Positions 1,005-9,074 of a DNA stretch of 9,428 bases are shown piece by piece. The translations under genes were made by a program, and so were the position numbers. The notes beneath the pieces are model-generated. The model saw nothing but the letters and a program-made list of their open reading frames with translations, had not been told where the DNA came from and ran no database searches. The stretch is taken from assembly GCF_006345805.1 (NCBI RefSeq), contig NW_021827939.1, positions 1 to 9,428 on the forward strand, in the 5' to 3' direction. How positions within the stretch are numbered: the first letter of the stretch is position 1; every line of letters begins with the position of its first letter. This DNA is from Octopus sinensis (lineage: Eukaryota).

Positions 1005-1237
1005 AAAGGCGGCGAGCTGGCAGAATCGTTAGCACGCCGGGCGAAATGCTAAGCGGTATTTCGTCTGCCGTTACGTTGTGAGTTCAAATTCCGCCGAGGT
1101 CACTTTGCCTTTCATCCTTTCGGGGTCGATAAATTAAGTACCAGTTGCGCACTGGGGTAGATATAATCGACTTAATCCGTTTGTCTGTCCTTGTTTGTCC
1201 CCTCTATGTTTAGCCCCTTGTGGGTAATAAAGAAATA
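1005..1237 (+). mobile_element. tRNA-derived SINE family A, copy 1 (Nin/Deu-domain-like core), head + one body
   Basis: A-box-like TGGCAGAATCGTT in the head and B-box-like GAGTTCAAATTCC at 1080-1092. Core GCCTTTCATCCTTTCGGGGTCGATAAATTAAGTACC resembles the Nin-DC domain (from memory). Four homologous copies in the window. Flanked by direct repeat GGTATTTA (997-1004, 1238-1245). Confidence 0.9.
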
Positions 1238-1355: not shown

Positions 1356-1416
1356 GAATGGTGTAGACGCCTCTGATGAGGACCCAATAAGGTTCGAAAA
1401 TCAATTAAGGCCATTC
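1356..1416 (+). ncRNA. Minimal type I hammerhead ribozyme (Penelope pLTR-type)
   Basis: Helix I GCCT(1369-72)/AGGC(1408-11) plus distal GAATG(1356-60)/CATTC(1412-16). Core CTGATGA 1373-79. Helix II GGACC/GGTTC with loop CAATAA. GAAA 1396-99. Vestigial helix III. NUH triplet TTA with predicted cleavage after 1407. TATATAA at 1316-1322 upstream. Confidence 0.8.
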
Positions 1417-1470: not shown

Positions 1471-1998
1471 TCTCTCTCTATATAAACGGCAGTTTGTCTG
1501 TCTGTGTGTCTGTGTGTCTGTCAGGTTATACCCTCACCCTGACCACGGCTTTCAACCGATTCTGATGAAACTTGACACACGCATAGCCCAATGTCATAAT
1601 TCAAAACTAACGCATCGAAAATTTTGAAAAGTTCCCCCAGTTCTGAAAAAAATCGATAAATTGGACATGGGGTCGAGAATCTAAGCTTTTTATATGCAAC
1701 ACATTTTCTGTTGAAGTTTTCGCAACTTGCAATCGATTTTCACCAAACTCATGGTGAAGCTTAATGCTACCCTAAGAAACTTAATTTTGACGTTAGTTTT
1801 CCATGCAATACCTTACCATCAGAAAAAATCGATAAAATCATGCCATTTTGGGAAATCGCGTTCAAATTCAAGATGACATATTTTCGACAATATCTTTCAC
1901 AAATTGGCAGGAAATTAGAGGGAAAGGACTAGATTGGGATTAGTCGTTGCCTACTAGGGGCTCTTACATACCCGGGCAGCGCCGGGATATGCTGCTAG
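1471..1998 (+). mobile_element. Non-autonomous Helitron (HINE/Lep1-like)
   Basis: Starts TC after host A1470 and ends CTAG (1995-98) before host T1999. 3' GC hairpin CCCGG-GCAGCG-CCGGG (1971-1986) lies 8 nt before CTAG. 5' (GTCT)n-type microsatellite and CCGATTCTGATGAAACTT motif typical of such elements. No TSD. Confidence 0.85.
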
Positions 1999-2418
1999 TA
2001 CTATATATTACGCATAAAGATATATAAAGACAATGCTTATTATTGTATTAGGAGATTAAACATACATTTTAACCCTTTGCGGTATACTTACATACATACA
2101 TAATTCCAAAGATGGATCTAAAACAATGGGATTACTAAAGGAAGTCCGGAATTTAAGAGGAGAGGAAACCAAAAGGACTCGTGATATTCATTGAAGGATT
2201 TTATTTTAGATATTCTCATTTTGAAAGTCATCTCCGGTTAATCGTTGAGAGGACATTGGTGTTGCGTTGGCGGAAAATTGCGCTCTCCGAGTGCTCTTGT
2301 TCTCATTCTTTCACGAATGTTTCAATTTATGATGCTACAACTGTTGGTGACGACTGGGGAAAAAAGGGCCTTTATGGCAAGTATTTTATTCCCTCAGTTG
2401 ACCTCTCCATTGAAGATA

Positions 2419-2714: not shown

Positions 2715-2999
2715 AAGGCGGTTAGCTGTCAGAATCGTTAGTGCGCCGAGCGAAATGCTTAGCGGTATTTCGTCTGCCGTTACGTTCTGAGTTCAAATTC
2801 TACCAAGGTGTCGACTTTGCCTTTCATCCTTTCGGGGGTCGATAAATTAATTAAGTACCAGTTACGCACTGGGGTCGATGTAATCGACTTAATCCCTTTG
2901 TCCCCCTCTATGTTTAGCCCCTTGTGAGCAATAAAGAAATAGGTATTTCGTCCATCCTTATGTTCCCAAATTCCGCCGGGGTCAACTTTGCCTTTCATC
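2715..2999 (+). mobile_element. SINE family A, copy 2: head + body (2764-2941) + partial second body (2942-2999)
   Basis: Homologous to 1005-1237. After the tail AAAGAAATA the sequence restarts at GGTATTTCGTC and runs to GCCTTTCATC. Confidence 0.9.
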
Positions 3000-3067
3000 T
3001 ATAAGATGGAGTGCTGTTTTAATTGAGTTGTATTTTACACAAATTAATTTCGAATATATATATATAT

Positions 3068-3260
3068 ATGTGACCTCGTATGTACTGTTGGCGATTTTTT
3101 TCCCTTTGTCTTCCCTTCTCTGGATCTTTCCTTCTCCTATGTTTCCGACGAAGAGCTCTGCTCGAAACGTTAAACCCTCCTTCTTTCCTGAGCGTCTCCA
3201 ATAATACTATATTTGTTCCACATCCTCGCGTTGTTGTGTTTTCCGTTTTGGATTAACTTT
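3068..3260 (+). mobile_element. Penelope-like pLTR-derived repeat, family P1 copy 1, with hammerhead variant at 3141-3175
   Basis: Near-identical copy at 6600-6773. GTTT-CCGACGA-A-GAGC-TCT-GCTC-GAAA-CG-TT-AAAC has hammerhead topology with palindromic ACGT helix III. Embedded in (TA)n. Confidence 0.75.
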
Positions 3261-3485: not shown

Positions 3486-3550
3486 TACATACATACATAC
3501 ATACATACATACATACATACATACATACATACACATATATATGTATACAT
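3486..3550. repeat. (TACA)n microsatellite
   Basis: Direct reading. Confidence 0.95.
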
Positions 3551-3551
3551 A

Positions 3552-3934
3552 GGCGCATGAGTGGCTGTGTGGTAAGTAGCTTGCTAACCAACCACATGGT
3601 TTCAGGTTCAGTCCCATTGCGTGGCATCTTGGGCAAGTATCTTCTGCTATAGTCCCGGGCCGACCAATGCCTTGTGAGTGGATTTGGTAGACGGAAACTG
3701 AAAGAAGCCTGTCGTATATATATATATATGCGCGTGTGTGTTTGTCCCCCTAGCATTGCTTGACAACCGATGCTGGTGTGTTTACGTACCCGTAACTTAG
3801 CGGTTCGGCAAAGAGACCGATGGAATAAGTACTGGGCAAAGAATAAGTCCCGGGGTCGATTTGCTCGACTAAAGGCGGTGCTCCAGCATGGCCGCAGTCA
3901 AATGACTGAAACAAGTAATAGTGTAAAAGAGTAA
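3552..3934 (+). mobile_element. tRNA-derived CORE-like SINE family B (octopus OK/OR-type), full length
   Basis: A-box TGGCTGTGTGG, B-box GGTTCAGTCCC, CORE-like CTTGGGCAAGT, internal (TA)(GT) tract, and tail GCTCCAGCATGGCCGCAGTCAAATGACTGAAACAAGTAA with short repeats. Family name is from memory only. Confidence 0.85.
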
Positions 3935-4453
3935 TATATATATACATATTTTTAAAAAATACTGTTTAGTGCCCTACGAATGAATAATCCCACGTGTTAT
4001 GCAAATTAGACATTGCAGGTTTAAGTGGGTCATTGTATAATGCTATAAATGGCAGTAACTCCCCAGTGGAGGGAGGGCAGGTATTTATGCCAAGAAGGAA
4101 CTGCGACTCTTTTGTCTTTTGCGTTTGCCGACGGGAAATCATAAGCGTTGTGTTTGCACTTTATAGCCTTTCTCACAAAGGGACGAAACGGTTTGTTTAT
4201 TCATCAAGCTATGCATTTCAAATATGTGTTCAATTAAGTGTGTGTGAATATGCACATATAAATATATATGTATATAGTTGGAATTCGTATTTGTTTGTGT
4301 GTGTGTGTAAATACAAGGAACAATAAAAAAACGACAATCCAGGATGAACAACTATTTTAACAAACTCCATATTAAGCTTAACGCTTATAGGAACAGAAAG
4401 TAATCTAACGATTCGGTCGTTCGTCCTTTGTCAGAAAAACATGTGTGTGTGTG

Positions 4454-4873: not shown

Positions 4874-4893
4874 TATATATATATATATATATA

Positions 4894-5150
4894 GGGAGAG
4901 TTTATGAAAAAAACAAAAGACGAAGACAGGCGGTGTACAAAACAAGCAGATGTATTAGTATAACGCTCAGGAATAGAAAAAGGCTTTTACGTTTCGAGCC
5001 TACGCTCTTCTACAGAAAGGGACACAGAAAAAAACAAGGAGAGAAAAATGTATGTAGTGGCTAACGATCTATCATGGCGACTGACTCGGACAGAAGGGTC
5101 ACACACGAGAGGGTAAGTAGGGGAGATAACAAAGTAAAGATGAAAATGTT
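4894..5150 (-). mobile_element. Penelope-like pLTR-derived repeat, family P2, with hammerhead variant at 4984-5019
   Basis: Minus strand reads CTTT-CTGTAGA-A-GAGC-GTAG-GCTC-GAAA-CG-TA-AAAG, followed by TTCCTGAGCGT...AATAC, which is shared with family P1. Right boundary approximate. Confidence 0.65.
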
Positions 5151-5824: not shown

Positions 5825-6253
5825 TATGTGTGTGTGTGTATACATGTGTACACACACATACACATAAATATATATATATATATACCCACAATCAAATACC
5901 TATAAATATATAGACAGATATACATACATATATACATATTTGTGTGTGTGTATATGTATATATATATATATATATATGTGTGTGTGGAGTGTGTGTGTGT
6001 ATGTATATGTATGCACGTATATATGTGTATATATATATATACTAATATATATATATATCCCAGTAGACTTTGGACTTGGTTGAACGCTTACAGATACACC
6101 ATATATAAATATACATATATTCAAACACACTCATATAAATATGTGTGTGTGTGTGTATGTGTATGTATATATCTATCAGAGTATCTATATGAATGTATGT
6201 ATATATATATAAATATATATGTGTGTCTGTGTGTGTATGTATATGTATATATA
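5825..6253. repeat. Mosaic (TA)/(TG)/(CA) low-complexity tract
   Basis: Direct reading, with a short unique island near 6059-6100. Confidence 0.9.
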
Positions 6254-6488
6254 TATTTCTTCATTACCCACAAGGGGCTAAGCATAGAGGGGACAAACAA
6301 GGACAGACAAAGGGACTAAATCGATTACATCGACTCCAGTGCATAACTGGAACTTAATTTATCGACCCCGAAAGGATGAAAGGCAAAGTTGATCTCGGCG
6401 GAATTTGAACTCAGAACGTAACGGCAGACGAAATACCGCTAAGCATTTCGCCCGGCACACTAACGTGTCTGCCAGCTCGCCGCCTTTT
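6254..6488 (-). mobile_element. SINE family A, copy 3 (head + one body)
   Basis: Reverse complement reads AAAAGGCGGCGAGCTGGCAGACACGTTAG...GGTAATGAAGAAATA and ends in a TA tract. Confidence 0.9.
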
Positions 6489-6570: not shown

Positions 6571-6599
6571 TGTGTATGTATGTATATATATATTTCAAA

Positions 6600-6773
6600 A
6601 TGTGACCTCGTATATACAGTTGGCGATTTTTTTCCCTCTGTCGTCCCTTCTCTGGATCTTTCCTTCTCCTATGTTTCCGACGAAGAGCTCAGCTCGAAAC
6701 GTTAAACCCTCCTTCTTTCCTGAGCGTCCAACAATACTTTATTTGTTCCACGTCCTCGCGTTGTTGTGTTTTT
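6600..6773 (+). mobile_element. Penelope-like pLTR-derived repeat, family P1 copy 2, with hammerhead variant at 6673-6707
   Basis: Aligns with 3068-3242; same CCGACGA core and GAAACGTTAAAC. Confidence 0.75.
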
Positions 6774-7406: not shown

Positions 7407-7410
<4 letters not shown>

Positions 7411-7685
7411 CTTGACCGACCAGATGTTGCTACACATCGCTGGTCACAATGCGCTTCGCATTGTTTTAGCCTTCAAGTGACGCCACCCCTAGCTAAGCGA
7501 GCAGGCCAAGAAAAAAAAGTGAAGAAAGTTGTGGCGAAAGAGTACAGCAGGTCGCCTCCATCCCCTTCCGGAGCCTGGAGCTTAGGTGTTTTTGCTCAAT
7601 AAACACTCACAACGCCCGGTCTGGGATCGAAACCGCGATCCTACGACCGCGAGTCCGCTGCCTAACCACTGGGCCATTGGCGGCT

Positions 7686-7688
<3 letters not shown>
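7407..7688 (-). mobile_element. tRNA-derived SINE family C
   Basis: Minus strand has A-box TGGCCCAGTGG, B-box-like GGTTTCGATCCC, CORE/V-like TTGAGCAAAAACACCTAAGCTCC and a structured 3' tail. Flanked by (TA)n on both sides. Confidence 0.8.
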
Positions 7689-7725
<37 letters not shown>

Positions 7726-7957: not shown

Positions 7958-8147
7958 CAGGGGTTGGACAAAATACTGAAATACCTAGCATCATAGCATC
8001 ATACTTTTGAAATGTCTATAAACCGTCAAAAGTTTGTTTATTTTAAAGTTTTTTTTTATATTACTATTAGTGTTGCTTAATATGTTTTGCTAAAATTGCT
8101 GTTTCTTTTCAAATATCATAAAAAAAAGGTAATTAAGATTCATTAAG

Positions 8148-9074
8148 ATGACAGATCGAACTTTGAAAGAAGTCAAATTGTTGGTGCTCGTATGGCAGGC
8201 GCTAGCATAACGAAAACAGTCGAAATGTTTGGTGTATGAAAAAGTACTGTATCGAAAGTAATGACAGCCTTTGAGAAGAAGGGAAAAGCCTCCTCGTCGA
8301 AACAAAACTCCGGAAGGAAACCAAAACTTTCAGATTGGGGCCGTCGGACTCTTACGCCAATTGTTAGAAAATATCACAAAAGTACAGCTCCCAAAATTAC
8401 TGCAGAGCTTAAGGACCACCTCGAGAACCCAGTTTCCACAAAAATTGTTCAGCTGGAGCTGCACAAAGCCAGCTTTTACGAAAGGGCTGCAAAAAAAAAA
8501 AAACCACTACTTTCAAAAATAAACGTTGCAAAGCGTTTAGAGTGGAGTAAAAACCTACAGAATTGGTCCCTAGAGAAGTGGAAGGATGTTATTTTCTCGG
8601 ACGAGTCATCCTTTACCTTATTTCTGACCATCGGTCGAGAATACCCATTTCTTTATTACCCACAAGGGGCTAAACACAGAGGGGACAAATAAAGACAGAC
8701 GTAGGTATTAAGTCAATTATATCGACCCCAGTGCGTAACTGGTACTTAATTTATCGACCCCGAAAGGATGAAAGGTAAAGTCGACCTCGGCGGAATTTGA
8801 ACTCAGAACGTAACGGCAAACGAAATACCTATTTCTTTATTACCCACAAGGGGCTAAACACAGAGGGGACAAACAAGGACAGACATAGGTATTAAGTCGA
8901 TTACATCGACCCCAATGCGTAACTAGTACTTAATTTATCGACCCCGAAAGGATGAAAGGCAAAGTCGACCTCAGCGGAATTTGAACTCAGAACGTAACGG
9001 CAGACGAAATACCGCTAAGCATTTCGCCCGACGTGCTAACGTTTCTGCCAGCTCGCCGAGAATACGTGTGGAGA
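8148..9074 (+). pseudogene. Tc1 transposase pseudogene (paired-like HTH, GRKPKL, HTH2, first catalytic D)
   Basis: ATG at 8148, frameshift near 8157, then NFERSQIVGARMAGASITKTVEMFGV*KSTVSKVMTAF (stop 8237-39) ...SGRKPKLS...KKPLLSKINVAKRLEW...WKDVIFSDESSF...GREY. After removing the SINE and one TSD copy it continues VWR (9066-9074). Confidence 0.9.
8645..9056 (-). mobile_element. SINE family A, copy 4: head + two complete 184-bp bodies
   Basis: Head 9056-9014, body 1 9013-8830, body 2 8829-8646. 9-bp TSD CGAGAATAC at 8636-8644 and 9057-9065. Confidence 0.93.

What the first reader, a model, noticed from the sequence alone, without database searches (positions are those of the whole stretch)
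8636..9074. Head+2-body SINE inserted as a single event into a Tc1 transposase
Seen: one 9-bp TSD brackets the whole dimer, and excising it restores GREY|VWR, matching the Tc1 motif after the DES aspartate. Both bodies are exactly 184 bp and share a variant (CACAGAGGGGAC; TAGGTATTAAGTC) not seen in copies 1-3. A third unit begins (GGTATT) at the TSD. Inference: the multimer most likely existed in the template. Units sharing copy-private variants means the duplication postdates subfamily divergence yet reuses the junction seen in copy 2, favouring recurrent, mechanism-driven multimerisation.
Basis: partly seen in the sequence, partly recalled or inferred. Interest (0 to 1): 0.7.

Follow-up and report, generated by a model that had tools for sequence, protein, structure and literature searches.

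The report
Octopus SINE stacking inside itself
This two-unit repeat is one of tens of thousands of stacked copies of a very common short jumping element in a likely octopus genome, and the stacks likely grow when new copies land at a fixed spot inside older copies, so a single pair of flanking repeats does not prove a single insertion.

Summary
The anatomy is real: a 9-bp TSD, two 184-bp units, and an empty Tc1 site in 545 other copies. The inferences mostly fail. The 'private' variant is a young subfamily allele (P), with 1,539 P-P neighbour pairs genome-wide. The 'third unit' is one extra G plus target sequence. Multimers are common: 27 of 82 long-tailed copies in 1.2 Mb, and 35 of 43 junctions restart at the same base. 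They are polar: P precedes Q 1,545 times and follows it 341 times, and last units are older (54 vs 22 of 83). There are 151 exact hits where a full new head sits inside an old copy with that site duplicated. At locus L310 a nearly unmutated P unit occupies a site whose ends are already filled in a relative that almost lacks P. Best reading: self-targeted insertion with seamless 5' joining, later local duplication, and some re-mobilisation. For this window's dimer, one versus two events is unresolved. Recurrent, mechanism-driven origin is supported; 'TSD proves a multimeric template' is not.

The parts
8636..8644 (.). TSD copy at the SINE 3' end; its first letters (SINE sense) match the start of the repeated unit
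   Evidence: empty sites (this host carries a minor Tc1 allele, seen in 2 of 100 listed sites, that improves the match)
8645..8645 (-). single non-target G, likely templated by RNA that ran on into the unit-start motif
   Evidence: RNA origin is inferred
8646..8829 (-). 3' unit, 184 bp, P subfamily, 4.1% from consensus at unmasked sites; last 42 nt match a LINE 3' end at 37 of 42
8830..9013 (-). 5' unit, 184 bp, P subfamily, 1.8% from consensus; carries a degenerate B-box-like motif
9014..9056 (-). head (5' half of the tRNA-like region, A-box-like motif), lacking its first few bases
   Evidence: no ARAGORN or Rfam hit
9057..9065 (.). TSD copy at the SINE 5' end
7958..8644 (+). host Tc1-family DNA transposon, 5' part, decayed (stop codon, 50 of 683 sites from family majority)
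9066..9074 (+). last 9 bp of the host Tc1; downstream sequence departs from 10 of 10 empty copies printed
1006..1237 (+). monomer of the same SINE (Q type) with an 8-bp TSD beginning with the unit-start motif
2715..3000 (+). head + Q unit + same junction + decayed partial second unit that looks older
6251..6486 (-). monomer of the same SINE inserted in a TA microsatellite

Best explanation
The element is one of many head-plus-n-unit stacks of an abundant tRNA-like SINE, and the stacks are likely built mainly by new copies inserting at a fixed site inside older copies, then extended by local duplication and some re-copying of whole stacks. Shown: each sub-lineage has a preferred target start, and two of these starts occur inside the SINE itself (unit start; head position 17). 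Sub-lineages form the junction that matches their genomic target. Full nested insertions with that site duplicated exist. 5' units are younger than 3' units. Inferred: a LINE of the L1 group sharing the 3' tail (likely Tx1 clade) nicks the site, and a few RNA bases past the tail pair with the target. The new DNA strand then usually anneals to the homologous old head or duplicated overhang instead of making a fresh 5' joint. That yields head-new unit-old unit inside the old TSD. Whether specificity comes from the endonuclease or from the RNA tag is not resolved. For this window's dimer I put two-step insertion at about 0.45, one insertion of a dimer RNA at 0.4, and early local duplication at 0.15.
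For: Fixed restart: 35 of 43 junctions at unit start, 3 at head 17. Target class follows sub-lineage: the GGTA-like start follows 28 of 35 terminal P units vs 4 of 62 Q172C units. Head-17 junctions follow 8 of 22 internal Q172C units vs 1 of 255 others. Intermediates: 151 exact hits. The 30 loci read were 24 distinct sites, 21 with a SINE head or unit end upstream; at 11 the duplicated letters recur after the new unit. Polarity 1,545 vs 341. Last unit more diverged in 54 vs 22 of 83 (p=1e-6), and in 10 vs 2 of 15 P..P. The C1 unit is more diverged than the P unit in 56 of 60. Old TSDs: 4 of 43 perfect vs 11 of 30. L310: the P unit is 1 of 184 from consensus; contigs of organism C (3 runs, 3 studies, flanks about 6% different) end inside the tail and inside the head; the P allele is at most 4% of depth there vs about 35% in organisms B and E. 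Tail shared with an RT-coding element. Precedent for annealing-primed 5' joints and tandem insertion: PMC2718515, passages.
Against: Only one orthologous locus was tested. Its contigs reach 25-30 nt into the element, under the tool's 31-letter bridging standard. The interior in organism C was not seen, so the P unit may have replaced an older first unit rather than been added. The window's own locus was not resolved, and its 3 vs 8 differences are not significant (p=0.23). P..Q TSDs are not measurably older than P-ended ones (7 of 26 vs 11 of 30, p=0.57). The mismatch rate for P..C1 TSDs (42/448) vs mono P + P..P (13/235) gives p=0.10. C1 monomer TSDs (5/82, 5 elements) were not more decayed than P..C1. 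Heads follow the first unit overall and are only intermediate in P..C1 (7.0% vs 11.8% for C1 monomers), which needs head replacement, an inferred step. Intermediates keeping both heads are few next to junctions. Like-with-like neighbours are strongly enriched (odds ratio 31), which self-insertion alone does not explain.
Confidence: 0.65

Rival explanations
1. Most stacks, including this one, were copied whole from multimeric master RNAs.
For: One TSD around many stacks (72 of 131 scored). Heads track the first unit. The extra G at 8645 implies RNA running past the tail. P last units share 2 or more variants across loci in 2.0% of pairs vs 0.2% for first units. P-P excess.
Against: Unit number varies from 1 to 11 or more. 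The age gradient holds within P..P and Q..Q. TSDs are old in P..C1. L310 is occupied in a relative nearly lacking P.
Confidence: 0.15
2. Reverse transcriptase jumps between RNAs at the junction, where a hairpin may pause it, joining an old-copy RNA to a young one in one insertion.
For: The junction lies in the 3' arm of a predicted hairpin (z -1.68, 10 of 200 shuffles as stable). Heads are young. Some last units are mosaic.
Against: Predicts young TSDs and empty orthologous sites. Does not produce loci with two heads and a duplicated site.
Confidence: 0.1
3. DNA-level unequal exchange or gene conversion alone makes the stacks (satellite-seed model).
For: Neighbours share 2 or more rare variants in 46% of 72 pairs from arrays of 4 or more units vs 0.7% of control pairs. 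An array of 11 or more units shares a private variant. Head-plus-TSD repeats are also locally amplified. Alu replacement by conversion is known (PMC554112, passages).
Against: Only 7 of 49 dimers share 2 or more rare variants, and the window's units share none. It gives no reason for polarity or for the link between target class and junction type. It clearly acts as a second step on long arrays.
Confidence: 0.1

Closest known systems
SINEU-3 with Tx1-Mar LINEs, crocodilians (PMC4494074; passages read)
   Same: Target-preferring SINE moved by a Tx1 LINE; tandem copies explained by sequential insertion, not by a dimeric subfamily.
   Different: Target is an unrelated Mariner and tandems are full-length copies separated by a TSD. 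Here the target is inside the SINE itself, and added units usually lack a head and a separating TSD.
R1/R2 of Drosophila (PMC2718515; passages read)
   Same: Tandem arrays by re-insertion into a duplicated site; precise 5' joints by annealing to upstream target sequence.
   Different: Autonomous elements in 28S rDNA; here a non-autonomous SINE whose homologous upstream sequence is its own older copy.
SINE-derived satellites of squamates (PMC10702118; first fifth, passages and Discussion read)
   Same: Tandem units shorter than the SINE with an extended terminal unit; longer arrays more uniform.
   Different: There the boundaries vary in short loci and origin is ascribed mainly to unequal recombination; here one fixed boundary dominates, with an age gradient and nested intermediates.
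Multimeric B2 and Dip SINEs of rodents (PMC8466645; passages read)
   Same: Up to half of copies in multimers; authors leave open head-to-tail insertion versus dimeric template.
   Different: Units are described as full-length; here they are headless 184-bp units and the question could be tested.
Alu gene-conversion replacement (PMC554112; passages read)
   Same: Young sequence inside an old TSD at an orthologous site.
   Different: About 2% of loci and no gain of units; here it seems to affect a large share of copies.

Membership tests
tRNA-derived SINE | Pol III A and B boxes in a tRNA-related head | tested here: inconclusive
   A-box-like motif at 13-24; B-box pattern not matched exactly (one extra base) (box consensus recalled); no ARAGORN or Rfam hit
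tRNA-derived SINE | short, non-coding, interspersed, high copy, variable-length TSD | tested here: met
   82 long-tailed copies in 1.2 Mb; TSD mean 14-16 bp, null 2 of 300
tRNA-derived SINE | 3' tail shared with a LINE | tested here: met
   37 of 42 nt match the 3' end of an RT-coding element in L040
Octopus tRNA-Deu SINE (DeuSINE superfamily) or OK/OR1/OR2 | central domain or family consensus match | not testable with these tools
   no consensus library; the 1994 paper is not held; PMC8967140 passages name tRNA-Core and tRNA-Deu as the main octopus SINEs; Deu likeness is recalled only
Complex (true dimeric) SINE | fixed number of units | tested here: not met
   1, 2, 3, 4 and 8 units in 55, 18, 5, 3 and 1 of 82
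Complex (true dimeric) SINE | units of equal age with position-specific consensus | tested here: not met
   last unit older in 54 vs 22 of 83; all four P/Q orders occur
SINE-derived satellite (sSat) | four or more internal units, locally homogenised | tested here: not met
   not met by the window's dimer; met by a few other loci, e.g. G000:C1:30020738-30022601
Tx1-clade partner LINE | RT phylogeny in Tx1 clade | not tested
   RVT_1 E 1.8e-20; best solved-structure hits are LINE-1 ORF2, R2 close behind; Tx1 label from recalled motifs and earlier scan notes; no tree built
Tc1/mariner host | Tc3-type HTH and first catalytic Asp | tested here: met
   PF01498 E 8e-11; DES in frame
Tc1/mariner host | complete DDE triad and both terminal repeats | tested here: not met
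   this copy ends at 9074; it is a decayed fragment of a family with 545 or more copies

The most novel reading that the evidence does not exclude
A self-feeding loop: each SINE lineage inherits its landing site as a few RNA bases read past its tail, lineages whose tag matches a site inside the SINE insert into their own old copies, overwrite the old promoter half and add a unit without leaving a new TSD, and so rejuvenate old loci and seed satellites at tens of thousands of sites.
Probability: 0.35. Interest if true: 0.75.

Novelty: new variant of a known kind. Interest (0 to 1): 0.5.

Why it matters
If true, TSDs and consensus ages mis-date a large share of one of the commonest repeats in this genome (roughly 60,000 stacks, extrapolated from 27 in 1.2 Mb). 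It would also give a testable route from interspersed SINEs to satellites and an answer, for one family, to a question left open for rodent multimers (PMC8466645). I found no description of it for cephalopods in paper searches, or in passages of PMC13282606 and PMC8967140. Repbase/Dfam entries, subscription papers (including the 1994 octopus SINE paper) and supplements were not seen and could already record dimeric consensus forms. This particular copy is an ordinary member.

Tried and rejected
DNA search of the genome with a unit fragment returned nothing because common words are skipped. Rfam and ARAGORN gave no hit, so a ribozyme/retrozyme reading has no support. The 3' tail does not fold better than shuffles (z -0.63). 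A motif search in papers returned only primers. Contigs laid on the window's locus showed no locus-specific joint among listed rows, so occupancy in relatives is unknown. 'Old head always kept' was rejected: heads track the first unit; in P..C1, head divergence correlated with neither unit. Cross-locus sharing lists were inflated by shared deletions, so substitutions only were used. A dedicated P-monomer control set was not obtained, so that group has only 6 elements. Of 20 C1 stretches fetched, 11 were simple monomers and 7 were scorable for TSD. Of 70 P..C1 loci, 62 had a head and 43 were scorable after dropping simple-repeat or tail-less cases. Two papers were not held. Look-ups of earlier findings by sequence and by words were empty.

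Full report
Observation. The window (G000:C4410) holds four copies of one SINE. The flagged copy lies on the minus strand: TSD 9057-9065, head 9014-9056, units 8830-9013 and 8646-8829 (11 of 184 differences), one extra G at 8645, TSD 8636-8644. The host is a decayed Tc1 copy (Pfam PF01498) with 545 uninterrupted sites elsewhere; it is 50 of 683 sites from its family majority. The host carries a minor allele, seen in 2 of 100 listed sites, that makes the target resemble the SINE's own unit start. The supposed third unit is therefore a target microhomology plus one base. The genome is likely an octopus, judged from repeat content and from earlier scan notes.

How common. An exact 30-bp unit-to-unit junction occurs 2,811 times (control 0). 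I took 120 stretches of 10 kb at round coordinates, the later ones skewed toward chromosome ends, so extrapolation is rough. In them, 27 of 82 long-tailed copies had two or more units, and 35 of 43 junctions restarted at the same base, 3 at head position 17. That scales to about 60,000 stacks. Arrays of 11 or more units exist. An older short-tailed sister type (C) shares head and core and can end a stack.

The 'private' variants. One is the majority allele (66% of 461 units). The other defines a young subfamily P (2.5% from consensus vs 4.2% for Q). Genome-wide neighbour counts are P-P 1,539, P-Q 1,545, Q-P 341 and Q-Q 10,674. There is both like-with-like enrichment (odds ratio 31) and strong polarity. 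The window's two units share no rare variant.

Age gradient. The last unit is more diverged than the first in 54 vs 22 of 83 stacks, with 7 ties (p=1e-6; includes pattern-selected loci, diagnostic sites masked). In the unselected sample, first units are 3.75% (n=28) and last units 5.2% (n=18). The trend holds within P..P (10 vs 2 of 15) and Q..Q (17 vs 8 of 28), and rises stepwise in trimers. In P..C1 elements the C unit is older in 56 of 60. For the window alone, 3 vs 8 differences is not significant.

Why that junction. TSDs start right after the tail with one of three motifs, and the motif follows the sub-lineage. The GGTA-like start follows 28 of 35 terminal P units and 4 of 62 Q172C units. 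Head-17 junctions follow 8 of 22 internal Q172C units and 1 of 255 others. Two of these motifs occur inside the SINE at exactly the two restart points. Direct intermediates exist: 151 exact hits of unit-start sequence followed by a new full head. The 30 loci read were 24 distinct sites; 21 had a SINE head or unit end upstream, and at 11 the duplicated letters recur after the new unit. The tail matches the 3' end of an RT-coding element at 37 of 42 nt. Its Tx1 assignment is recalled and not tree-tested.

Does one TSD mean one event? Not in this family. Perfect TSDs flank 4 of 43 P..C1 elements and 11 of 30 P-ended elements (p=0.007). At L310 the P unit is 1 of 184 from the P consensus and the C unit 6% from its own. 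Contigs of organism C from three studies, about 6% different in the flanks, end 25-30 nt inside the tail on one side and 26 nt inside the head on the other. At a P-diagnostic site the P base is at most 4% of depth in C against about 35% in organisms B and E. So the site was filled before P spread, and the P unit was added or substituted in place. Limits: one locus, overlaps under the tool's 31-letter standard, interior unseen. Against: P..Q TSDs are not measurably older (7 of 26 perfect, p=0.57), the few C1 monomer TSDs were not more decayed (5/82), and the mismatch-rate test gave p=0.10. Heads track the first unit overall and are intermediate and widely spread in P..C1, consistent with frequent but not universal replacement.

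Second step. Neighbours share two or more rare variants in 7 of 49 dimer pairs, 30% of 54 trimer pairs and 46% of 72 pairs in longer arrays, against 0.7% of controls. Local duplication therefore lengthens arrays. Re-copying of whole stacks likely also occurs; the run-on G and a small excess of cross-locus sharing in last units fit it.

Mechanism. Shown: fixed site, lineage-linked target class, nested intermediates, polarity, old TSDs in one class, and prior occupancy at one locus. Inferred: LINE-made nick, RNA-target pairing past the tail, and 5' joining by annealing to the old head, as proposed for R1/R2 (PMC2718515, passages). Earlier scan notes report LINE-like elements at the same SINE sites. 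I did not test that; it would favour enzyme specificity over an RNA tag.

Comparison and verdict. The closest cases are SINEU-3/Tx1-Mar tandems, R1 tandem arrays, squamate SINE satellites, rodent multimers and Alu replacement. All were read as passages or named sections, none whole. Searches showed no account of this for cephalopods; repeat databases and supplements were not seen. The copy is an ordinary member of a family with an unusual, testable way of growing: new variant of a known kind, interest 0.5.

Noticed in passing
window 3550-3935: A second abundant tRNA-like SINE with an internal TA/TG microsatellite; in L012/L013 and L016 stacks of the studied SINE end next to a motif of this element's head, as if inserted there.
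   Followed up: no
window 3054-3250, 6586-6770, and 4880-5050 (minus): Three copies of a short repeat between TA runs (94% identity over 143 nt for two); by eye it holds a hammerhead-ribozyme-like motif, untested.
   Followed up: no
window 1370-1400: By eye, a minimal hammerhead-like motif of the kind recalled from Penelope-like elements; untested.
   Followed up: no
window 1475-2020: About 540-bp repeat ending in a GC-rich hairpin and CTAG, Helitron-like by eye.
   Followed up: no
window 7408-7690 (minus): Another tRNA-like short element between two TA microsatellites.
   Followed up: no
L335-L339 (G000:C1:195358956-195359246); also C7:15322785-15323080 and C18:40399009-40399169: Head-plus-TSD units of 65-66 bp amplified into arrays of 3-6 copies after a nested insertion.
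   Followed up: partly
L062, L084, L106, L122, L035: Full-length copies separated by a TSD-length spacer, which in L062 recurs at the far end: re-use of an older copy's TSD as target.
   Followed up: partly
L044:670-1691 (minus), L183:1949-3380, L229:2245-2572: Other elements sharing the same 3' tail, one with a zinc-knuckle ORF and no RT seen before the tail.
   Followed up: partly
window 8820-8834 vs 8882-8894: The P allele makes a 9-nt stretch complementary to the tail end and junction motif; meaning unknown, fold not significant.
   Followed up: partly
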